This document shows, in pieces, positions 269 through 14,374 of a DNA stretch of 32,000 bases. How positions within the stretch are numbered: position 1 is the first letter of the stretch; each line of letters opens with the position of its first letter. The notes beneath the pieces were generated by a model. The model searched no databases and was not told the DNA's origin. It worked only from the letters and a program-made list of their open reading frames with translations. This stretch comes from Planctomycetales bacterium (GTDB taxonomy: Bacteria > 4484-113 > JAFGCY01), in assembly GCA_022646745.1 (NCBI GenBank), contig CP060262.1, forward strand, positions 780,001 to 812,000. Direction: 5' to 3'. The position numbers were made by a program, and so were the translations under genes.

Positions 269-660
269 TTGGACCCCCGAGGTCACTAGTATTTCCGCCA
301 TTTGTCCGGCGGCGCTCTTATTGAAGGATGTTACGCGGATTGCAGCGTTCCATCTTTAACCTGCGATGCAATTGGGGTGCAGATTTGGTTGCGGCCCGCC
401 ATGTCGTGGCATGGAAGCTATCGTCGGCTGGATCCCGTTCTTGAACGGAGGGGTGTGGTAACTTTGCGGGTACTCAAACCGGAACAATCCAGCTGGACCA
501 AGAAAATTTTTGTTCCATCCGCAAGTCAGGCCAAAATCGGTGGAAATGTCCGCAATCTGTTAACGGAATTTGATTTTTGGACTGATGTTTTCAGTCCATA
601 TAATAGTGTGTTCTTCCAGTGTTAATCAGACGCATAAGCCACTTGATAACAAATTACCAC

Positions 661-688
661 TTGAAATTTTCGTAATATGTGCTATATA
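661..688 (+). promoter_or_regulatory. Candidate sigma-70 promoter for the NPC-repeat lipoprotein gene
   Basis: The sequence reads TTGAAA (661-666), a 16-nt spacer, then TATATA (683-688). It lies in the AT-richer 269-777 intergenic region, about 90 nt upstream of the ATG at 778. This is a sequence match only. Confidence 0.4.
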
Positions 689-777
689 TGTTCGTTCTTA
701 AGAGGTGGCCAGCGGCTACCCGGCGAATGGACAGACCTGACGGCTGTTATTCGCAATTTCCAATTTGGGAGTATAAA

Positions 778-1185
778 ATGCGTCTAGTAGTAGTTTTGAT
801 GGTGGGTCTGTTCCTGATGGCTCTGTGTGGCTGTCCCGCATCCGACAACGGTGGTAGCGATACCCCCGCCGTGACCGGTGGCACCTCTGATGCCGGCACC
901 GAAAACCCCTGCATGGGTGGTGAGGCTGCTGATGAGCACGCCGGCCATGACCACGCCGCTGGCGAGGGCCATGAGGACGGTGGCGAGAACCCGTGTGGTG
1001 AGAACCCCTGCGCGGGCGACAACCCCTGCAACCCCTGCGGCGGTGAGAATCCCTGTGGTGAAAACCCGTGTGGTGAGAACCCCTGCGGCGACAACCCGTG
1101 TGGCGACAACCCGTGTGGCGATAACCCCTGCGGCGACAACCCCTGCAACCCCTGCGGTGGCGGCGAGAACCCCTGCGGTCACTAG
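778..1185 (+). CDS. Small lipoprotein with a His-rich segment and about 14 tandem G-[E/D]-N-P-C pentapeptide repeats (Cys-rich, putative metal-binding)
   Basis: This is the in-frame ATG at 778 of ORF 679-1185, preceded by a GGGAG SD 6 nt upstream. The N-terminus MRLVVVLMVGLFLMALCGC is a signal peptide with a lipobox-like L-x-G-C. It is followed by HAGHDHAAGEGHED and then GENPCGENPCAGDNPCNPCGGENPCGENPCGENPCGDNPCGDNPCGDNPCGDNPCNPCGGGENPCGH. A strong terminator follows. Confidence 0.8.
   Translation: MRLVVVLMVGLFLMALCGCPASDNGGSDTPAVTGGTSDAGTENPCMGGEAADEHAGHDHAAGEGHEDGGENPCGENPCAGDNPCNPCGGENPCGENPCGENPCGDNPCGDNPCGDNPCGDNPCNPCGGGENPCGH
982..1176 (+). repeat. Coding tandem repeat, 15-bp unit (ggY gaN aac ccN tgY) with occasional 9-bp NPC units
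   Basis: Direct reading shows ggcgagaacccgtgt, ggtgagaacccctgc, then ggcgacaacccgtgt twice, ggcgataacccctgc and ggcgacaacccctgc. The periodicity keeps several frames open on both strands, which explains the ORF-track entries 747-1148(-), 784-1200(-) and 878-1192(+). Confidence 0.9.
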
Positions 1186-1213
1186 TAGATAAACGATCAA
1201 CAGAAACGAAACA

Positions 1214-1245
1214 GGCCCGCCGATCCGGCGGGCCTTTTCATTTTC
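1214..1245. terminator. Rho-independent terminator between convergent genes, usable in both directions
   Basis: A perfect 9-bp GC stem GGCCCGCCG (1214-1222), loop ATC, then CGGCGGGCC (1226-1234), followed by TTTTCATTTTC. On the other strand the stem is followed by TGTTTCGTTTCTG. It lies between the lipoprotein stop (1185) and the ABC ATPase stop (1289). Confidence 0.8.
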
Positions 1246-1288: not shown

Positions 1289-2017
1289 CTAATAATTGGG
1301 GCTGTGCACCTTTGATGGATCCGCCTTGCGGCGGTCCTTCACCGGCTCATCGTTGATGAGCAGGCCATCGCGGAAGCGCAGGATGCGCTTGCAGCACTGG
1401 GCCACCTCTTCCTCATGGGTCACGATCACAAGCGTGATGCCGCCGTCATTGAGCTCCTGGAAGATCTTCAGCACTTCCTCGCCACTCTTGGTGTCGAGGT
1501 TTCCCGTTGGCTCATCGGCGAGGATGATCGCCGGCTCATTCACGAGCGAACGTGCCACGGCGACACGCTGCTGCTGTCCGCCGGACAGCTCATTGGGCTT
1601 GTGGTGAATGCGGTCCCCCAGCCCGACCCGCTCCAGCGCACTCTGGGCACGCTTGCGCCGGTCACGCACGAAACCGCTGTAGACCATCGGCAGTTCGACA
1701 TTCTCAATCGCGGAAGTACGGGGCAGCAGGTTGAAGTTCTGGAACACGAAACCGATCTTGCGGTTCCGCACCCGGGCCAGCTCGCCGTCACGCATGCGTG
1801 ACACATCCGTCCCTTCCAGGCGGTAGGTCCCGCTGCTCGGGCGGTCCAGGCAGCCCATGATGTTCATCGCGGTGGACTTGCCGGATCCGGAGGTGCCCAT
1901 GATCGCCACGAACTCACCCTCCTCGATCGTGAAGTTCACGCCGGCAAGGGCGTGCACCTCATGCGTGCCCATCTTGTAGATCTTCTCAATGTCGATGAAT
2001 TCAATCAGCTTCTTCAT
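1289..2017 (-). CDS. ABC transporter ATP-binding protein, MacB/LolD/FtsE-type, stand-alone ATPase
   Basis: The start is placed at the internal ATG (2015-2017, MKKLIEFIDIEKIYK), 4 nt after the upstream stop; the longer ORF-track start would overlap the TolC-like gene. Walker A is GTSGSGKST. Also present are FQNFNLLPRTSAIENVELP, the signature LSGGQQQRVAVARSL, Walker B ILADEPTGNLD and the H-loop VTHE. Confidence 0.92.
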   Translation of the reverse strand: MKKLIEFIDIEKIYKMGTHEVHALAGVNFTIEEGEFVAIMGTSGSGKSTAMNIMGCLDRPSSGTYRLEGTDVSRMRDGELARVRNRKIGFVFQNFNLLPRTSAIENVELPMVYSGFVRDRRKRAQSALERVGLGDRIHHKPNELSGGQQQRVAVARSLVNEPAIILADEPTGNLDTKSGEEVLKIFQELNDGGITLVIVTHEEEVAQCCKRILRFRDGLLINDEPVKDRRKADPSKVHSPNY

Positions 2018-2021
2018 GATT

Positions 2022-3623
2022 TCAGAGCAGGTCCGCCAGAACCAGGATACTGCGGTAGGTTTCCTGGAAGGAAACCCGCGCCTGCAGGAGGGACAGTTCG
2101 GCTGCCAGCAGGTCGTCCTGCGCATCAATCACGTCCAGGGTGGTGGCCAGGCCGACGCGCTGGCGCTCCTCGGTGATCTTGAGGGTCTCGCGCAGCACCT
2201 GCACGTTCTTGATCTGCAGTTCGATGGTGCGGCTGCGAGTGTCCAGCTCGCGCTCCAGTGAACGCAGGGACTGCTTGAGCTGCAGCAGGGTCTCCTCGCG
2301 GTTGAGCTGCAGGTTCTCCAGGTCGAGCTGGGTCTGGGCCAGGCTGGCCTTCAGGTCGCGGTTGCGCCGGTCAAGCGACCAGCTGATGGAGGCCGTGATG
2401 CTCTCCTCATCAAGCCCGAGGATCGCATCGGCGAACTCGGCCTCGGCGGTGTTTCCCCGGCCGATGCTCAAACCGAAGTCCACGCGCGGCTCCATCTGGT
2501 CCAGCGTGGATTCACGGTTGATCTTGAGGTTGGCGATCGTCGTATCGATGCTGCGCAGGGTGAAGCTGGTGGCCTTCACGAGCTCCCACAGGTCCGGCGG
2601 CAGTTCATCGAAGCTGCTGTCCTCCAGCGCTCCCATGTCGAGTTCGATTTCGAACTCCTGCGGCAGGCCAACGAGTACCGTGAGCTGGTCCAGGCTGTCA
2701 TGGTAGCCCTGTATCGCTGCAATCAGGGCATTACCCTGGCTGATGACGGAATTCTCCGCCTGCAGCACATCGAGCGGGATGCCGAGGCCGACCTTGAGCC
2801 GTTCCATTGCGCGATCGAGCTGCAGTAGCGCAGTCTCAAGGTTCGCGCGGCGCACGTTGATTGATTCACGTGCCGCCATCGAGCGGTAGTAGCTGTTGAT
2901 CACATTGAGCTTCAGCTGGCGGATGTCATTGTCCAGGCTGTCGTAGCTGAGTTGCAGGCTGTTGCTTGCTGTGTACAGCGACAGGTTGTTGATGAATCGG
3001 CCACTGCCTCGCCTGAGCGGCTTCGTGTAGTTGAAGTTGAAGTTCTGGCTGTAGCTGTTGGAAAAGCCGCCGCCTCCCTTGGCACCACTCAGGCCGTAGG
3101 ACACGGACATCGCATCGCCATTGTCGAAGGGCTTGCTCCAGGTGGTCGAGGCACTGTAGGACTGGCTGTCAGTCCCGCCGGCGAAGGGCCACTCATCGGT
3201 GCTCGACCGGCTGGCGCGCAGGTCACCGCTCCACTGGGGATCCCAGCGGTAGTAGGTGCGGTCCACGCTGAAGTGGTTCTTCTCGATCGTGTTCTGCTGG
3301 TTGCGCAGGCCGTAATTGTTGGTGACGGCGAGCTCCAGCAGTTCCTCAAGCGAAACCAGCATCGCGCCATCATCAGAGAATGGTTCAGGTGTCAGGCGGA
3401 ACAGCTCAGCGGTTTCCATGCCGCTGTCCAGCGCATGCTGGAGTTCCTCGCCCCATGCCTTTCCCGTTTCCCCGGGTACAAGTCCAAATTCCTCTCCTGA
3501 AACCGTTACCGCCGCGTTCACAGATTCATCGCCTGCCAGCTCTTCAGCCCCAGCCGGCAGGGCAAGAATCAGGACCGTGGCAACGGGCAGCAGGCGCAGC
3601 GCAGTGCGCGTTGCTCCGTTCAC
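2022..3623 (-). CDS. TolC-family outer membrane efflux protein
   Basis: GTG start at 3623 with a GGAGGAGG SD 6 nt upstream. The signal peptide is LRLLPVATVLILALPAGA. LSLEELLELAVTNNYGLRNQQ and a second repeat half (LDRAMERLKVGLGIPLDVLQAEN ... RVGLATTLDVIDAQDDLLAAELSLLQARVSFQ) are typical of the two-repeat OEP/TolC architecture. Confidence 0.85.
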   Translation of the reverse strand: MNGATRTALRLLPVATVLILALPAGAEELAGDESVNAAVTVSGEEFGLVPGETGKAWGEELQHALDSGMETAELFRLTPEPFSDDGAMLVSLEELLELAVTNNYGLRNQQNTIEKNHFSVDRTYYRWDPQWSGDLRASRSSTDEWPFAGGTDSQSYSASTTWSKPFDNGDAMSVSYGLSGAKGGGGFSNSYSQNFNFNYTKPLRRGSGRFINNLSLYTASNSLQLSYDSLDNDIRQLKLNVINSYYRSMAARESINVRRANLETALLQLDRAMERLKVGLGIPLDVLQAENSVISQGNALIAAIQGYHDSLDQLTVLVGLPQEFEIELDMGALEDSSFDELPPDLWELVKATSFTLRSIDTTIANLKINRESTLDQMEPRVDFGLSIGRGNTAEAEFADAILGLDEESITASISWSLDRRNRDLKASLAQTQLDLENLQLNREETLLQLKQSLRSLERELDTRSRTIELQIKNVQVLRETLKITEERQRVGLATTLDVIDAQDDLLAAELSLLQARVSFQETYRSILVLADLL

Positions 3624-3685
3624 GGGTTGCCTCCTCCACTTATCCTCGTTCTAGGGGGACGCTAATCCACCTTTCAATGTTTCGC

Positions 3686-4564
3686 CTAAGGGCCTTCTGA
3701 TCCAGGTAGCTTGTAGCCGCTCTTGCTGAAGTCCAGCGAGACGACGTCTGATGCGAACTGCTCCACTGCCGGCGTGATGATCTTGCTGGTGACACCGAAG
3801 TAGATGCCGCCCATGATCAGGCTGTAGAGCAGGTAGCCGACGATAAGCTGGCCGAATCCAAGGTCAGTTGCCTGCATGAAGGCGATTGCATACAGGATGA
3901 CCGCGTATAGCATGATCACCGAACCCACTATGTAGAGAACGCTGTTCCCCATCAGTGAGGCGGGCTTGAATCCATCACCGAACACCGCGAAGCTGGAGAA
4001 GCTTGCGGCGGTATAGCAGCACCAGCCGATGGTGTAGAAGAACATCGGGTATGCGGTGGTGCTCATCATGTCGCTGAGTGAGACGGGCGAACCGAACATC
4101 TTCGCGGCCAGGAAAAAGACGAGACCGGCGATCACCCAGATGAACAGGCCGAACAGGCCAAGCCACAGCAGGTTGCTGTCGACCATGGTCTGGTACAGCA
4201 CATCAAGCTTGCCGGTCGCCCAGTTGGCCGCCACGTCGCGGTAGTTGCCATTGGGGTTGCTCATCGCAAGCTGCTTGCCGAACTCGACAGCGAATTCCTG
4301 GTATCCCGCGCTCATCTGCGCACGGTTCAGCACGAGCACAATCGAACCGATCAGGTGCCCGAGGAACACCACCGCGAATGAATAGAACGCGGTGTCGCTT
4401 TGGCCGTGGTGCTTCAGACTGGCACCGGGTGCAGTGACAACCTCAAAGAGATTGACAAAGAATTTCAGTCCGAGCACGACGAAGCTCACGAGCGTCAGCA
4501 CGACAAGTGCTATCAGCATCATGCCGGTTGTGTCGTCACCCTGCAGCATTGCTAGCGCAAACAT
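3686..4564 (-). CDS. Polytopic inner-membrane protein (about 6 TM), unknown function; possibly Yip1/YknW-like
   Basis: ATG at 4564 with an AGGGG SD 5 nt upstream. Six hydrophobic segments are readable: MMLIALVVLTLVSFVVLGL, AFYSFAVVFLGHLIGSIVLVL, LLWLGLFGLFIWVIAGLVFFLAA, AYPMFFYTIGWCCYTAASF, VLYIVGSVIMLYAVILYAIAF and LIVGYLLYSLIMGGIYFGV. A loop of about 50 aa follows TM2. The family assignment is not verifiable by eye. Confidence 0.75.
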   Translation of the reverse strand: MFALAMLQGDDTTGMMLIALVVLTLVSFVVLGLKFFVNLFEVVTAPGASLKHHGQSDTAFYSFAVVFLGHLIGSIVLVLNRAQMSAGYQEFAVEFGKQLAMSNPNGNYRDVAANWATGKLDVLYQTMVDSNLLWLGLFGLFIWVIAGLVFFLAAKMFGSPVSLSDMMSTTAYPMFFYTIGWCCYTAASFSSFAVFGDGFKPASLMGNSVLYIVGSVIMLYAVILYAIAFMQATDLGFGQLIVGYLLYSLIMGGIYFGVTSKIITPAVEQFASDVVSLDFSKSGYKLPGSEGP

Positions 4565-4607
4565 CGCAACCCCTACACACTAGGCCGGAATAAACGTCAA
4601 TTATAGC

Positions 4608-5780
4608 CTAGTTCAGTTTTATTTGAATGGTCTCATAGGCGTCGACACGCTTGACGCCTGAGTAATTGACCACCACCGTACCCGCAGCATAGTCATGCAG
4701 GCCGCGGAAGGCGGGGAAGAACCAGCTCAGGAACACGGCCGGCCCCTCGAACAGCACGATGAAGATCAGCGTGCGGATCAGCAGGCTGCCGAAACTGGCG
4801 AATTCACCCCACTCAGTCACGACCCGGATGCCCACCCAGCTCATGCCGATGCTCCTGTTCCAGAATGCAAGGGAAAGGAAGTAGTACAGGTAATCGGTGA
4901 TCGCAAACAGGATCAGCCAGTACGGGATCGGCTTCAGGTAGATGAAGGCATCGATGATCCTGCCCAGCTGGGTCCCGCCGCTGTCGTCATTGAAGAGGGC
5001 GAACAGCGGACTGCTGTTGCCTCCGGCGCCACCCATCACGAACAGGGCGCAAAGGACCAGGAAACGTGTGATTGTCCAGTCAATGCCAAGCGCCAGCAGC
5101 TTGCGCAGCGGATGGGCCGGCCGGCCCTCCATCCCGAAAGCACTGTTGCCGAGCTCGAACTCAGGCGGCTCCTCCGGCGCGATGTCCGGACCATAGTCCT
5201 CGCCACGCTCTGCGGCATCGAGGATCTCCTCCTCGCTGCGCACGAACATCGCCTCGGCGCAATCCACGCACAGCAGCTTGCCGCGCCGCACCGTCATCGC
5301 CTTCTGGCAGAAGAATGCCTGGCAGACCGGGCACTGTGTGGTGGCCACCTGGTCGGGATACTTGCGGCACATCACCTCGACCTGGCTGTCACGGTAGTAA
5401 TCACTTACGGCACTGTCAGCGTCACCCGGCTGGTCGGACTGGCGGCCCGATCGGCTGAAGTCCACATCGCCGGGCATTGCGTCGGGGTTGCTGAGGACCT
5501 GCTGCAGGAGCGAGACCTTCTCGGTCTCCGGCAGTTCCTGCCATTCCTCAGGCTCGAACCCGTCCGGGATGTCCTTGTCAAATTTTCGTTGCGGGCGCTG
5601 CTCGGCATTGTCATGGGCAGGCTTGTCCCCGCGCGACGAAGCGTCAGGGGAACTCCCGCTGCTGCCTTCCCGGCCGGTCGTTGGCTTGTCCCCTGCGCCA
5701 GACTGGCCGCCCTGGAGCAGCCTCCAGAGCTGGTTGTCCTCGTCGGGATTGCTCCCGGCGGGAGGTTGGTTGTCAATCAT
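4608..5780 (-). CDS. RDD-family membrane protein with a disordered N-terminus and a Cys-rich zinc-ribbon/B-box-like module
   Basis: The N-terminal ~125 aa are low complexity (P/G/S/D/E-rich). They are followed by C-x13-C-x2-C-x4-C-x13-C-x2-C (CRKYPDQVATTQCPVCQAFFCQKAMTVRRGKLLCVDC). The C-terminal half has the RDD pattern: R in HPLRKLLALGIDW, TM helices, and D in GLHDYAAGTVVV. Confidence 0.8.
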   Translation of the reverse strand: MIDNQPPAGSNPDEDNQLWRLLQGGQSGAGDKPTTGREGSSGSSPDASSRGDKPAHDNAEQRPQRKFDKDIPDGFEPEEWQELPETEKVSLLQQVLSNPDAMPGDVDFSRSGRQSDQPGDADSAVSDYYRDSQVEVMCRKYPDQVATTQCPVCQAFFCQKAMTVRRGKLLCVDCAEAMFVRSEEEILDAAERGEDYGPDIAPEEPPEFELGNSAFGMEGRPAHPLRKLLALGIDWTITRFLVLCALFVMGGAGGNSSPLFALFNDDSGGTQLGRIIDAFIYLKPIPYWLILFAITDYLYYFLSLAFWNRSIGMSWVGIRVVTEWGEFASFGSLLIRTLIFIVLFEGPAVFLSWFFPAFRGLHDYAAGTVVVNYSGVKRVDAYETIQIKLN

Positions 5781-6097: not shown

Positions 6098-6173
6098 TGG
6101 TGGAGGAGATCGGATTCGAACCGACGACCTATTGCGTGCAAGGCAATTGCTCTGCCAGCTGAGCTACTCCCCC
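6098..6173 (-). tRNA. tRNA-Ala (anticodon UGC), CCA encoded
   Basis: The reverse complement folds by hand as GGGGGAG TA GCTC AGCTGGCA GAGC A ATTGC CTTGCAC GCAAT AGGTC GTCGG TTCGAAT CCGAT CTCCTCC A CCA. This gives a canonical cloverleaf with the G3:U70 alanine identity pair and anticodon loop C-U-UGC-A-C. Confidence 0.93.
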
Positions 6174-9657: not shown

Positions 9658-10158
9658 TCACTCACCTTGCCGGGAGCAGTCCTCAATTGCCTCGTCCCCG
9701 CCGGAACCACCCGGCCGGGCTGCGCCCCCATGGTCGTACCAGAACCGCATGATGTGGTCGCTGGCCTCAAGGTAGTGTAGCTCATCCACCTCCGGCCGCG
9801 GGAAATTGCGGATGTACATGCTGAACACCGGAGCAGCGCTGCAGCCTAGTTCCAGCAGGCGCGTTTGCAGGCGTCGCACGGTGCCCCCGCTCCAGCAGGA
9901 GGTATCGCAGATCAGCGGAGTGTGGAGCCTGCCAACCGGGATGTTGCCAACGTCACTGGCACAGAAGAAGGGCAGCTTCAGCTGGTGGCTGAGGAACACC
10001 GCAGGGAACAGGCCGCTGCGGATCACGCCGACGACGCAGTCGGGGCGGGGGTCCATCCCTTCGACGTAGCGCACCATGCGCCAAAGGAGCTGCGTGTACA
10101 GCTCCGCGCTGACGGCGTACTGCGCACCGGGACCGCCTGCCTGCCTGTCGGATGCCAC
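9658..10158 (-). CDS. Phosphoribosyltransferase-fold protein (Gpt-like layout) with a degenerate PRPP-binding motif
   Basis: GTG start at 10158. The order YAVSAELYTQLL ... VVGVIRSGLFPAVFLSHQLKL ... PLICDTSCWSGGTVRRL ... FWYD parallels E. coli Gpt (YIVTWDML ... [21 protein letters not shown] ... FIVIDDLVDTGGT ... QPWD). The acidic DD..D of the PRPP loop is largely replaced. The stop TGA lies 2 nt before the tpiA ATG. Confidence 0.65.
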   Translation of the reverse strand: MASDRQAGGPGAQYAVSAELYTQLLWRMVRYVEGMDPRPDCVVGVIRSGLFPAVFLSHQLKLPFFCASDVGNIPVGRLHTPLICDTSCWSGGTVRRLQTRLLELGCSAAPVFSMYIRNFPRPEVDELHYLEASDHIMRFWYDHGGAARPGGSGGDEAIEDCSRQGE

Positions 10159-14302: not shown

Positions 14303-14374
14303 TGGAGCTGAGGGGATTCGAACCCCTGACCCTCTGTCTGCCAGACAGATGCGCTACCACTGCGCCACAGCCCC
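14303..14374 (-). tRNA. tRNA-Ala (anticodon GGC), CCA not encoded
   Basis: The reverse complement folds as GGGGCTG TG GCGC AGTGGTA GCGC A TCTGT CTGGCAG ACAGA GGGTC AGGGG TTCGAAT CCCCT CAGCTCC A. The G3:U70 pair is present and the anticodon loop is C-U-GGC-A-G. The next bases are GTT, so CCA must be added after transcription. Confidence 0.9.

What the first reader, a model, noticed from the sequence alone, without database searches (positions are those of the whole stretch)
778..1185. Lipoprotein made almost entirely of G-[E/D]-N-P-C pentapeptide repeats with a His-rich head
After a lipoprotein-type signal peptide, the mature protein of about 115 aa has a His cluster (HAGHDHAAGEGHED). This is followed by about 16 Cys spaced every 3-6 residues, mostly 5, in the motif NPC. 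Each Cys is flanked by an acidic residue and a turn-forming Asn-Pro-Gly context.

I cannot assign this to a characterised family. The combination of His and regularly spaced thiols on an exported lipoprotein suggests a periplasmic or surface metal-sequestering protein, metallothionein-like for Cu, Zn or Cd. A disulfide-laddered structural fibre is the alternative.

The gene has its own near-consensus promoter and strong terminator. It sits in an AT-richer 500-bp island between housekeeping-type genes.
Basis: partly seen in the sequence, partly recalled or inferred. Interest (0 to 1): 0.65.

Follow-up and report, generated by a model that had tools for sequence, protein, structure and literature searches.

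The report
Lipid-anchored His-plus-NPC cysteine-repeat protein
A small, real, exported lipoprotein from an uncultured bacterium (candidate phylum UBP7) consists of a histidine cluster followed by a disordered run of Asn-Pro-Cys pentapeptides; this repeat module is widespread and apparently undescribed, and it most likely binds metals outside the cytoplasm, though that is inferred and not shown.

Summary
Window 778-1185 (+) encodes a 135-aa protein with a lipoprotein signal (lipobox LCGC, Cys19), a His cluster and 14 NPC motifs. All differences among the 11 G[D/E]NPC units lie at codon position 3, so the reading frame is under selection.

The protein matches no Pfam, NCBIfam or PDB entry. AlphaFold2 predicts the whole mature part to be disordered.

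The NPC array is not unique to this gene. A profile search found 622 protein clusters in at least six bacterial lineages, nearly all with signal peptides. The arrays stand alone or flank SoxA/TsdA-like haem domains, cytochrome P460, DM13 and YHS domains. In this lineage they also flank a cyclophilin and a solute-binding protein.

Three things favour a metallothionein-like extracytoplasmic metal buffer (confidence about 0.45):
- The head motif DEHAGHDH recurs in heavy-metal ATPases, CzcB-like adaptors, a CusF-like protein and a COG0523-like GTPase.
- 11 of 30 stand-alone relatives begin their predicted mature chain with X-H-H-E, a copper/nickel-type N-terminus.
- YHS domains are both adjacent to and fused with NPC arrays.

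There is no metal-resistance locus nearby and no maturase, so a RiPP reading is not supported. Rivals are a tether or cross-linked envelope protein and a SoxY-like sulfur carrier. The promoter and 5' leader are the best-conserved part of the locus.

The parts
661..688 (+). Candidate sigma-70-type promoter: -35 TTGAAA (661-666), 16-nt spacer, extended -10 TGc-TATATA (680-688)
   Evidence: Read from the sequence. The -35, TG and -10 elements are invariant in four genomes, while sequence further upstream is about 50% identical. The consensus scan tool did not list this site because its rule requires T at position 6 of the -10 hexamer.
690..777 (+). Conserved 5' leader of about 85 nt with three candidate hairpins (704-720, 723-754, 755-773). 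The third pairs UUUCC with the Shine-Dalgarno GGGAG (767-771).
   Evidence: Promoter plus leader is 82-86% identical to L009 and L001, against 66-74% for the first 210 nt of the CDS. RNAalifold gives three hairpins, with changes on both sides at two pairs of hairpin 1. Four sequences are too few for significance (121/500 shuffles). The single-sequence fold has z = -2.5 but a different minimum-energy structure. No Rfam match. A covariance model finds the leader only upstream of orthologues.
778..1185 (+). CDS of the 135-aa NPC-repeat lipoprotein (stop TAG 1183-1185)
   Evidence: Variation among repeat units is confined to third codon positions. Orthologues: L008 99%, L009 76%, P0002 62%.
778..834 (+). 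Lipoprotein signal peptide (residues 1-18) and the Cys19 predicted to be lipidated, in lipobox L-C-G-C
   Evidence: The lipobox rule is met. The signal is conserved in L008, L009 and P0002, the last with LSGC. AlphaFold2 predicts a confident helix for residues 2-16 only.
904..912 (+). Isolated NPC (residues 43-45) in the tether, before the His cluster
   Evidence: Present in all four orthologues as [ED]NPC[MG]G.
931..978 (+). His/acidic cluster DEHAGHDHAAGEGHED (residues 52-67)
   Evidence: The motif DEHAGHDH recurs in Hymenobacter P1B-type ATPases, CzcB/HlyD-like adaptors, a CusF-like lipoprotein tail, a COG0523-like GTPase insert and a TRASH/YHS-like lipoprotein (L051, 71% identical over residues 49-72). 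The domain assignments for these loci are my reading of the translated sequences.
982..1176 (+). NPC array: 13 NPC in residues 69-133 (11 G[D/E]NPC pentapeptides, two NPCNPC doublets that give C-N-P-C), followed by the C-terminal Gly-His
   Evidence: Repeat number varies between assemblies: L002 (P0001) lacks 75 bp, or five units, in otherwise identical DNA. pLDDT is below 50 throughout.
1213..1245 (.). Bidirectional intrinsic terminator shared with the convergent ABC-ATPase gene (stem-loop 1213-1235, then a T-run)
   Evidence: 10-bp stem, 9 G-C pairs, 3-nt loop, T-rich tails on both strands. The stem is partly conserved in L001.

Best explanation
The gene encodes a small protein that is exported through the Sec pathway, lipidated on Cys19 and held at a membrane facing the periplasm.

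Its 117-residue mature chain has no fixed fold. It joins two low-complexity metal-ligand modules. The first is a His/Asp/Glu cluster (DEHAGHDHAAGEGHED) of the kind found on metal transporters. The second is an array of 13 Asn-Pro-Cys units. In each unit an Asn-Pro turn would present one thiol, about every five residues, and two C-N-P-C (CxxC) pairs are included.

Proposed mechanism (inferred): the His/carboxylate head captures incoming ions, and the thiolate array holds several thiophilic ions (Cu(I), Zn(II), Cd(II) or similar) as thiolate clusters. The chain would fold only on binding, as metallothioneins do. It would therefore act as a periplasmic metal buffer, sink or donor.

Shown here:
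- The gene and its reading frame are real.
- The protein carries an export and lipidation signal.
- The repeat is conserved and widespread.
- The mature chain is predicted to be disordered.
- The array associates with His motifs, YHS domains and redox domains.

Inferred: metal binding, which metal, the thiol redox state and the physiological role.
For: 1. The frame is under purifying selection, and orthologues keep the order signal, lipobox, single NPC, His cluster, NPC array.

2. Cys, Pro and Asn of the unit are nearly invariant across 152 NPC-rich proteins, while spacer residues and charge vary freely (AA, AAK, GA, AV, GD, GE). Selection therefore acts on the thiol and its turn, not on a packed fold.

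3. 147 of 152 NPC-rich proteins, and 30 of 30 stand-alone ones, have a signal-peptide-like N-terminus.

4. The His head motif is shared with a P1B heavy-metal ATPase, CzcB-like adaptors, a CusF-like protein, a COG0523-like GTPase and a TRASH/YHS-like lipoprotein.

5. His clusters recur next to NPC arrays in independent lineages:
- L041 has a C-terminal EEGHEGHDH.
- P0003 and P0007 carry internal His runs.
- Tails end in NPCAH or NPCGH.
- 11 of 30 stand-alone proteins have [A/D/E]-[H/S]-H-E directly after a predicted A-x-A cleavage site. This gives His at mature position 3, the amino-terminal Cu(II)/Ni(II) pattern.

6. A periplasmic YHS-domain protein lies directly upstream of the NPC proteins P0003 and P0007 on separate contigs. 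YHS is fused to NPC arrays in four further proteins; one of them scores E = 1e-44 against NF041384.

7. AlphaFold2 gives pLDDT below 50 and no secondary structure for the mature chain with alignments of 6 and of 24 sequences. This is consistent with an apo-metallothionein-like chain.

8. Free-Cys counts are odd in 8 of 24 stand-alone relatives (my count), which argues against an obligatory all-disulfide design.

9. C-terminal arrays on solute-binding proteins and cytochromes cannot be tethers.

10. There is precedent that exported Cys-every-fifth peptides bind Cu(I): HvfA/oxazolin, after enzymatic modification (PMC11252979).
Against: - No metal-resistance, metal-sensing or metal-transport gene is linked to the gene in the window or in orthologous loci. 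The only conserved neighbours are a convergent ABC-ATPase/OEP/RDD operon, and that fits plain synteny.
- Neighbours of eight Myxococcota loci show no enriched metal family.
- In the same lineage the array is attached to a cyclophilin and to a LivJ-like binding protein, which have no obvious metal role.
- The commonest partner is a SoxA/TsdA-like haem domain (about 54 of the top 120 hits, my count). That points at sulfur or redox chemistry at least as much as at metals.
- His is not enriched overall in stand-alone relatives (2.6%).
- In an oxidising periplasm the thiols could be disulfide-bonded.
- There is no experimental datum of any kind.
- Disorder prediction on shallow alignments of a repeat is weak evidence.
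Confidence: 0.45

Rival explanations
1. Spacer or structural envelope lipoprotein. The pentapeptide array would be an extended, flexible stalk, functionally like the Neisseria AAEAP repeats of H.8/Lip and Laz. It might be cross-linked through disulfides into the envelope, like the small Cys-rich chlamydial lipoprotein OmcA or the cystine- and proline-rich wall proteins of planctomycetes. The stand-alone protein would then be an abundant structural or surface-coating component.
For: - The architecture parallels H.8/Lip, a lipoprotein made of pentapeptide repeats, and Laz, where the same repeats tether a redox domain (PMC3916388).
- Here the same array lies between lipobox and domain in cyclophilin lipoproteins (L010, L017, P0147) and cytochrome P460 lipoproteins (P0005, P0084, L019).
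- The commonest unit family-wide, AANPC, is rich in Ala and Pro like known linkers.
- The gene has a strong conserved promoter and a strong terminator, as expected for an abundant small lipoprotein.
- Repeat number varies between assemblies.
- The chain is predicted to be disordered.
- One related genome is labelled Planctomycetales in its NCBI record.
Against: - A pure spacer does not explain a nearly invariant Cys and Asn.
- It does not explain arrays at C-termini of soluble domains (L011, L015, L016 and the SoxA-like proteins).
- It does not explain the conserved His cluster, the X-H-H-E N-termini or the YHS linkage.
- Odd free-Cys counts in a third of relatives do not fit a fixed intramolecular disulfide ladder, although intermolecular links remain possible.
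- There is no match to chlamydial OMP families.
Confidence: 0.2
2. Sulfur-carrier or thiol-redox arm. The flexible Cys arrays would carry sulfane sulfur or thiosulfonate, or cycle between thiol and disulfide. They would work like the SoxY GGCGG swinging arm that SoxAX loads. The stand-alone lipoprotein would be a multi-Cys carrier or redox buffer serving periplasmic haem enzymes.
For: - The most frequent architecture is a SoxA/TsdA-like monohaem domain (PF21342; weak TIGR04484 SoxA similarity) flanked on both sides by NPC arrays: 11 of 43 proteins, and about 54 of the top 120 hits.
- These domains keep a Cys in a conserved NFCM motif about 35 residues after CxxCH (seen in the sequences). That Cys could be the axial ligand typical of SoxA/TsdA (established knowledge: these haems form S-S bonds to a carrier Cys).
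- Other partners (cytochrome P460, DM13) are also redox domains.
Against: - The window protein has no haem domain, and no sox or dsr genes are in the 32-kb window.
- His clusters, X-H-H-E termini and the YHS linkage are not explained.
- Cyclophilin and solute-binding fusions are not explained.
- The haem ligand assignment is untested.
Confidence: 0.15
3. RiPP-type precursor. The Cys of the repeats would be enzymatically modified before or during export, as in HvfA/oxazolin and bufferins (MNIO enzymes) or the NCBIfam 'Cys-every-fifth RiPP peptide CefA', by a maturase encoded elsewhere in the genome.
For: - NPC arrays give hits to NF038108 (CefA): P0022 scores 32.5 bits against a cut-off of 30, and stand-alone relatives score 13-27 bits.
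- They also give weak hits to NF050188 (HvfA), 17-20 bits.
- HvfA is a Sec-exported peptide with Cys every fifth residue (PMC11252979).
- MNIO enzymes accept diverse signal-peptide-bearing Cys-rich precursors (PMC12452194).
Against: - The window protein and its repeat region give no hit to either model even at E = 10.
- The HvfA scores are far below its cut-off of 95 bits.
- No DUF692/MNIO, DUF2063 or DoxX gene appears in the window or in any locus examined.
- No radical-SAM gene lies next to an NPC gene. The one seen, near P0074, lies beyond an opposite-strand gene and its locus could not be read.
- Arrays are often fused to large folded periplasmic domains, unlike RiPP cores.
- The MNIO survey does not mention NPC.
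Confidence: 0.07

Closest known systems
Metallothioneins, including the bacterial SmtA/BmtA and MymT
   Same: Small, very Cys-rich and without a stable apo fold. Metallothioneins fold on metal binding (PMC7558416). The window protein has CxxC pairs and short Cys spacings, and SmtA likewise has accompanying His ligands.
   Different: There is no sequence similarity. The bacterial examples are treated as part of the cytosolic Cu pool (PMC7558416), whereas this protein is exported and lipid-anchored. It has a strictly periodic single-Cys pentapeptide instead of CxC/CC clusters. Metal binding is untested.
HvfA/oxazolin and the Buf_EGKCG precursors (MNIO-modified RiPP metallophores)
   Same: A signal peptide followed by pentapeptide repeats with one Cys each (EGKCG versus G[D/E]NPC). 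The product is exported, and for HvfA Cu(I) binding is established.
   Different: HvfA needs an adjacent MNIO enzyme and its partner, which convert the Cys to oxazolone/thioamide or thiooxazole. No such genes occur here. The HMM score is nil for the window protein and 17-20 bits (cut-off 95) for relatives. AlphaFold2 gives a beta-helix for Buf_EGKCG proteins but disorder here.
NCBIfam NF038108 'Cys-every-fifth RiPP peptide CefA'
   Same: It is the only curated model that recognises NPC arrays at all. The shared feature is the Cys-every-fifth periodicity.
   Different: The window protein does not match. Stand-alone relatives fall below the cut-off. No maturase is present in the surrounding genes. 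I found no publication on CefA, so its other defining features could not be checked.
Neisseria H.8/Lip and Laz (AAEAP pentapeptide-repeat lipoproteins)
   Same: A lipoprotein whose body is a tandem pentapeptide array, with the same array reused as an N-terminal tether for periplasmic redox domains in the same organisms (PMC3916388).
   Different: AAEAP contains no Cys, His or Asn. It is an analogy of architecture, not homology. NPC arrays also occur at C-termini.
His- and Cys-rich metal-binding tails and storage proteins (Helicobacter Hpn, the SlyD C-terminal tail, the Tat-exported Cys-lined copper store Csp1)
   Same: A low-complexity His (and Cys) stretch that buffers or delivers metal. Hpn begins MAHHE and contains Cys pentapeptides (own knowledge). 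SlyD is a prolyl isomerase with a metal-binding tail, like the NPC-cyclophilin fusions. Csp1 is an exported multi-Cu(I) thiolate store (PMC7558416).
   Different: Hpn and SlyD are cytosolic and mainly His-based. Csp1 is a folded four-helix bundle exported by the Tat pathway. None shows sequence similarity to this protein.

Membership tests
Bacterial lipoproteins (Lgt/LspA substrates) | N-terminal signal with a basic n-region, an uncharged hydrophobic core and a lipobox [LVI][ASTVIC][GAS]-C within residues 15-35 | tested here: met
   A PS51257-type rule matches MRLVVVLMVGLFLMALCGC with Cys19. The signal is conserved in L008, L009 and P0002, the last with LSGC.
Bacterial lipoproteins (Lgt/LspA substrates) | Actual diacylglyceryl modification and cleavage by signal peptidase II | not testable with these tools
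   Requires globomycin sensitivity, lipid labelling or mass spectrometry.
Metallothionein (SmtA/BmtA, MymT) | Sequence membership in a metallothionein family model | tested here: not met
   No Pfam or NCBIfam hit at E up to 10.
Metallothionein (SmtA/BmtA, MymT) | High Cys content, no stable apo fold, multiple metal ions held in thiolate clusters | tested here: inconclusive
   The mature chain has 15 Cys in 117 residues, 14 of them free once Cys19 is lipidated, and predicted disorder. Both fit. Cluster formation cannot be computed.
HvfA/oxazolin (NF050188) and other MNIO-dependent precursors | HMM score at or above the curated cut-off (95 bits) | tested here: not met
   The window protein gives no hit. 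Relatives P0004 and P0255 score 17-20 bits.
HvfA/oxazolin (NF050188) and other MNIO-dependent precursors | Adjacent MNIO (DUF692) gene with a DUF2063-type partner and DoxX (PMC11252979, PMC12452194) | tested here: not met
   None among the window ORFs scanned or in the loci.
HvfA/oxazolin (NF050188) and other MNIO-dependent precursors | Sec-type signal peptide plus Cys-containing pentapeptide repeats | tested here: met
CefA, 'Cys-every-fifth RiPP peptide' (NF038108) | HMM score at or above the curated cut-off (30 bits) | tested here: not met
   Neither the window protein nor its repeat region gives a hit at E up to 10. The orthologue L009 scores 13.8 bits. Only the cytochrome fusion P0022 reaches 32.5 bits.
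CefA, 'Cys-every-fifth RiPP peptide' (NF038108) | Co-located peptide maturase. I expect this of a RiPP, but I could not verify the family's defining partner because no paper was found. | tested here: inconclusive
   No radical-SAM or other maturase lies next to the gene in any locus examined. The family definition itself could not be read.
Pentapeptide-repeat proteins (A(D/N)LXX right-handed beta-helix) | Pfam pentapeptide model match and a quadrilateral beta-helix | tested here: not met
   No Pfam hit. AlphaFold2 shows no strands and pLDDT below 50. The unit lacks the central Leu/Phe.
H.8/Lip-type repeat lipoproteins | AAEAP repeat sequence | tested here: not met
   The unit here is G[D/E]NPC.
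H.8/Lip-type repeat lipoproteins | A lipoprotein consisting of a tandem pentapeptide array, with the same array reused as a tether on other lipoproteins | tested here: met
   The window protein, and L010, L017, P0147, P0005, P0084 and L019. This is a resemblance of architecture only.
Chlamydial cysteine-rich outer-membrane lipoprotein (OmcA) | Sequence membership, and disulfide cross-linking into an outer-membrane complex | tested here: not met
   No Pfam hit. Cross-linking is not testable here.

The most novel reading that the evidence does not exclude
NPC arrays ([A/G]-x-N-P-C repeated) would be a widespread, so far undescribed extracytoplasmic thiol module of bacteria. The window gene would be its minimal, lipid-anchored form and the first periplasmic, membrane-tethered, unmodified metallothionein-like protein. 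It would use a His/carboxylate capture head and a thiolate array, under the control of a dedicated, highly conserved structured 5' leader. A still bolder variant is that the arrays are multi-Cys swinging arms that exchange metal or sulfur with the SoxA/TsdA-like, P460, DM13 and YHS domains they flank.
Probability: 0.35. Interest if true: 0.75.

Novelty: new variant of a known kind. Interest (0 to 1): 0.55.

Why it matters
Bacterial metallothioneins are rare and are described as part of the cytosolic metal pool. The known periplasmic metal buffers are either folded proteins such as Csp1, CusF and CopC or enzymatically modified peptides such as bufferins and oxazolin.

An unmodified, lipid-anchored Cys-repeat protein would add a third and simpler solution. 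It would also give a function to a repeat module found in hundreds of exported proteins from Cyanobacteria, Myxococcota, Thermodesulfobacteriota, Gemmatimonadota, Gammaproteobacteria and UBP7. That module currently has no Pfam or NCBIfam model of its own, and one source labels it only an 'uncharacterized low-complexity protein'.

The repeated fusion to SoxA/TsdA-like haem, P460, DM13 and YHS domains gives direct experimental handles. The conserved leader offers a possible new cis-regulatory element.

If the module proves to be only a spacer, the finding reduces to a curiosity of low-complexity sequence.

Tried and rejected
- Pfam and NCBIfam scans of the protein and of its repeat region alone gave nothing. 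A PDB sequence search gave nothing.
- Rfam gave only two tRNAs at gathering thresholds and only a chance microRNA hit in E-value mode over 560-820.
- Literature searches found no description of the module. I searched for NPC repeat strings, 'Asn-Pro-Cys', 'NPC motif' and 'Cys-every-fifth/CefA'.
- An alignment-based locus search failed because no stretch was conserved enough, so I used the single protein instead.
- An exact 23-nt leader pattern found nothing in the metagenome contigs. The covariance model found the leader only upstream of orthologues, so no regulon emerged.
- Pfam enrichment among 55 neighbouring ORFs of eight Myxococcota NPC loci showed no metal, MNIO or maturase family in the 25 families listed of 56, only local synteny such as APH and methyltransferases.
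- About 100 of the best 150 phmmer hits were unrelated low-complexity proteins without NPC, and I discarded them.
- Two AlphaFold2 runs gave no usable model, so I did not run a fold search.
- Cys parity as a disulfide test gave 16 even against 8 odd, which is not decisive.
- The pentapeptide-repeat beta-helix and chlamydial OmcA readings were rejected for lack of any model match.
- A spurious ORF was rejected on the third-position variation pattern and the conserved signal peptide.
Full report
**What is in the sequence.** Window 778-1185 (+) is an ORF of 135 codons. A GGGAG ribosome-binding site lies 7 nt upstream, and the stop is a double TAG.
- Residues 1-19 (MRLVVVLMVGLFLMALCGC) satisfy a PROSITE-type lipobox rule with Cys19 as the acylated residue. 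The orthologue P0002 has the canonical LSGC.
- The mature chain has 117 residues: 26 Gly, 16 Pro, 15 Cys, 15 Asn, 22 Asp+Glu, 5 His and no Lys or Arg.
- In order, it contains a Ser/Thr/Gly tether, one isolated NPC (residues 43-45), the His cluster DEHAGHDHAAGEGHED (52-67) and an array of 13 NPC units (69-133) that ends in Gly-His.
- Fourteen NPC motifs compare with 0.25 expected from shuffling. Tandem Repeats Finder sees the 15-nt period.
- Among the 11 G[D/E]NPC units every nucleotide difference is at a third codon position, and no first or second position varies. Together with the signal peptide and its conservation, this shows the frame is genuinely coding. The overlapping ORFs in other frames are by-products of the repeat.

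**Setting.** The gene stands alone.
- Upstream, a membrane-protein gene runs in the opposite direction off the window edge.
- Downstream, a convergent operon encodes an ABC ATPase, an OEP/TolC-like protein, an unassigned membrane protein and an RDD protein.
- The two transcription units share a bidirectional terminator at 1213-1235.
- The rest of the 32 kb is ordinary: triose-phosphate isomerase, RibD, RsfS, FtsW/RodA, phosphoglycerate mutase, FlgK, an ECF sigma factor and two tRNAs. No metal-resistance gene and no peptide maturase is present.

**Origin and orthologues.** A genome scan places the window in candidate phylum UBP7.
- Locus L008, from MAG 'UBP7 HKST-UBA01', is 99% identical at the protein level.
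- Orthologues occur in a MAG labelled Planctomycetales (L009, 76%) and in a 4484-113 MAG (P0002/L001, 62%). They keep the same downstream genes but have different upstream ones.
- All keep the order signal, lipobox, single NPC, His cluster, array. The arrays are homogenised differently in each lineage: GDNPC x11 in L009 and GDNPCNPC x8 in P0002.
- A further assembly (L002/P0001) is identical in DNA except for an in-frame 75-bp (five-unit) gap in the array. This is either repeat-number polymorphism or assembly collapse.

**The NPC array is a widespread module.** Of the best 150 phmmer hits against 1.84 billion representatives, 45 carry six or more NPC motifs. The remainder are unrelated low-complexity proteins. 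A profile of stand-alone members found 622 clusters at E <= 1e-5.
- Architectures:
  - short stand-alone secreted proteins or lipoproteins;
  - SoxA/TsdA-like monohaem cytochromes flanked on both sides by arrays, the commonest form (about 54 of the top 120 by my count);
  - cytochrome P460 with an N-terminal array;
  - DM13 and YHS domains behind an array, in proteins that include one from the cyanobacterium Leptolyngbya (P0206, DM13);
  - an unassigned beta domain of about 100 aa between two arrays;
  - in UBP7 and its relatives, a cyclophilin behind a lipobox-plus-array tether, and a LivJ-like solute-binding lipoprotein with a C-terminal array.
- Source labels include Myxococcota, Thermodesulfobacteriota, Gemmatimonadota, Cyanobacteria and Amphritea.
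- 147 of 152 NPC-rich proteins have a signal-peptide-like N-terminus, and the five exceptions look truncated.
- N, P and C are nearly invariant, while the spacer is free. AA is by far the commonest, then AAK, GA and AV. The acidic GD/GE spacer is a lineage peculiarity.
- One source calls a member an 'uncharacterized low-complexity protein'. Five literature searches found no description.

**Evidence bearing on function.**
- *His head.* The pattern DEHAGHDH retrieved Hymenobacter P1B-type ATPases, CzcB/HlyD-like adaptors, a CusF-like lipoprotein, a MacB/FtsX-type permease loop and a COG0523-like GTPase insert. It also retrieved a TRASH/YHS-like lipoprotein whose head is 71% identical to window residues 49-72. 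I assigned these domains by reading the translations. Low-complexity motifs can converge, but the company this one keeps is consistently metal handling.
- *His next to NPC arrays elsewhere.* Examples are L041 (C-terminal EEGHEGHDH), P0003/P0007, and tails ending NPCAH or NPCGH. In 11 of 30 stand-alone proteins a predicted A-x-A cleavage site is followed directly by [A/D/E]-[H/S]-H-E. This puts His at mature position 3, the classical amino-terminal Cu(II)/Ni(II) pattern. The cleavage sites come from the -3/-1 rule only.
- *YHS linkage.* A periplasmic YHS-domain protein sits immediately upstream of the NPC proteins P0003 and P0007 on unrelated contigs. YHS is also fused to arrays in four proteins.
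- *Structure.* AlphaFold2, with alignments of 6 and of 24 sequences, is confident only for the signal helix. Almost all of the mature chain has pLDDT below 50, and there is no meaningful secondary structure.
- *Cys parity.* Free-Cys counts are odd in 8 of 24 stand-alone relatives, so an obligatory disulfide ladder is unlikely.
- *Position of arrays.* Arrays at C-termini cannot be tethers.

**Most likely mechanism.** On this evidence I favour a disordered, membrane-tethered metal buffer or donor. The His/carboxylate head would capture ions, and the thiolate array, including its two C-N-P-C pairs, would hold several thiophilic ions. The chain would fold only when loaded, as metallothioneins do (PMC7558416). 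The metal cannot be named. The head's associates point to Zn, Co, Cd or Cu, and the X-H-H-E termini point to Cu(II) or Ni(II). I put this at about 0.45, because there is no linked metal gene anywhere and no experiment.

**Rivals.**
- *Tether or structural lipoprotein (0.2).* The parallel with Neisseria H.8/Lip and Laz (AAEAP pentapeptides; PMC3916388) is striking, and the array does sit in the tether position of several lipoproteins. A spacer, however, explains neither the invariant Cys and Asn nor the C-terminal arrays and His features.
- *SoxY-like sulfur carrier or thiol redox arm (0.15).* The dominance of SoxA/TsdA-like partners suggests it. These partners keep a conserved Cys after the CxxCH motif. 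The window holds no sulfur-oxidation genes, and the His features stay unexplained.
- *RiPP precursor (0.07).* NPC arrays give hits to NCBIfam CefA ('Cys-every-fifth RiPP peptide') and HvfA that fall below threshold, except one cytochrome fusion at 32.5 bits. HvfA is an exported EGKCG-repeat copper binder. Against this, the window protein matches neither model and no MNIO, DUF2063 or DoxX gene is present in any locus examined. The one radical-SAM gene seen, near P0074, lies beyond an opposite-strand gene. Many arrays are also fused to large folded domains.

**Regulation (side finding).** From the -35 element to the start codon (about 659-777) the locus is 82-86% identical between genomes. The first 210 nt of the CDS are only 66-74% identical, and sequence further upstream is at random level.
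- The promoter reads TTGAAA, 16 nt, TGc-TATATA.
- The leader of about 85 nt can form three hairpins, the last pairing with the Shine-Dalgarno sequence.
- Two pairs of hairpin 1 change on both sides, but four sequences give no statistical weight. The single-sequence minimum-energy fold is different.
- There is no Rfam match, and the model finds the element only in front of orthologues.
- It could be a structured regulatory RNA or a protein operator. Either way, expression of this gene appears to be tightly controlled.

**Verdict.** The protein is a member of a widespread and apparently undescribed Cys-repeat module rather than a unique oddity. Its function, most plausibly extracytoplasmic metal buffering, remains inferred. 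I rate it a new variant of a known kind, with interest 0.55.

Noticed in passing
window 659-777 (also L008 5882-6000, L009 5882-6000, L001 about 9880-10000): The promoter and an 85-nt 5' leader are the most conserved part of the locus: 82-86% identity against 66-74% for the CDS. The leader can form three candidate hairpins, the last sequestering the Shine-Dalgarno sequence. No Rfam family matches, and the element is found only upstream of orthologues.
   Followed up: partly
window about 988-1062 versus L002: A second assembly is identical in DNA except for a 75-bp in-frame gap of five pentapeptide units inside the array. This is either repeat-number polymorphism or collapse of the repeat during assembly.
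   Followed up: partly
L010 5602-6738, L017 1914-2750, L011 4531-6183, L015 4504-6168, L016 4783-6159: In UBP7 and related MAGs the same NPC array is attached to ordinary lipoproteins. It lies between the lipobox and a cyclophilin domain, and forms a C-terminal tail (ending NPCAH or NPCG) on a LivJ-like solute-binding protein.
   Followed up: partly
P0022, P0014, P0019, P0021, P0027, P0029, P0042, P0045, P0127, P0145 and about 54 of the top 120 hits: The commonest NPC architecture is a SoxA/TsdA-like monohaem cytochrome c domain flanked on both sides by arrays. The domain keeps a Cys in an NFCM motif about 35 residues after CxxCH, which is a possible His/Cys-ligated haem.
   Followed up: no
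L003 2112-3117, L007 1002-2020; P0221, P0225, P0226, P0262: A periplasmic YHS-domain (seleno)protein family member lies directly upstream of NPC proteins on two unrelated contigs. It is fused to NPC/DPC arrays in four other proteins.
   Followed up: partly
L057-L060 and L062, genes at about 2700-5230: In Myxococcota-like genomes the [A/D/E]HHE-type NPC peptide (70-75 aa) follows, on the same strand, a pair of genes encoding an RnfD/NqrB-like membrane protein and a DUF2330 protein. The arrangement is conserved between two species.
   Followed up: no
L021-L029, L031, L033, L035-L039, L048, L050, L051, L054, L055: The motif DEHAGHDH recurs as a low-complexity insert or tail in P1B-type ATPases, CzcB-like adaptors, a CusF-like lipoprotein, an FtsX-type permease, a COG0523-like GTPase and a TRASH/YHS-like lipoprotein from Bacteroidota and Planctomycetota. 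It looks like a portable His-rich metal-binding tag.
   Followed up: partly
window 1289-5780 (-): The operon encodes RDD, an unassigned 292-aa membrane protein, an OEP/TolC-like protein and an ABC ATPase. No permease or adaptor gene was recognised among the ORFs scanned. Its order is conserved in L001 and L002.
   Followed up: no
window 6101-6173 (-) and 14303-14374 (-): Two tRNA genes, the only Rfam matches at gathering thresholds in the window.
   Followed up: no
P0206, P0175 and five further PF10517 proteins: In a set of DM13-domain proteins, including P0206 from the cyanobacterium Leptolyngbya, the unit alternates AANPC with AADPC. Asp can therefore replace Asn before Pro-Cys.
   Followed up: no
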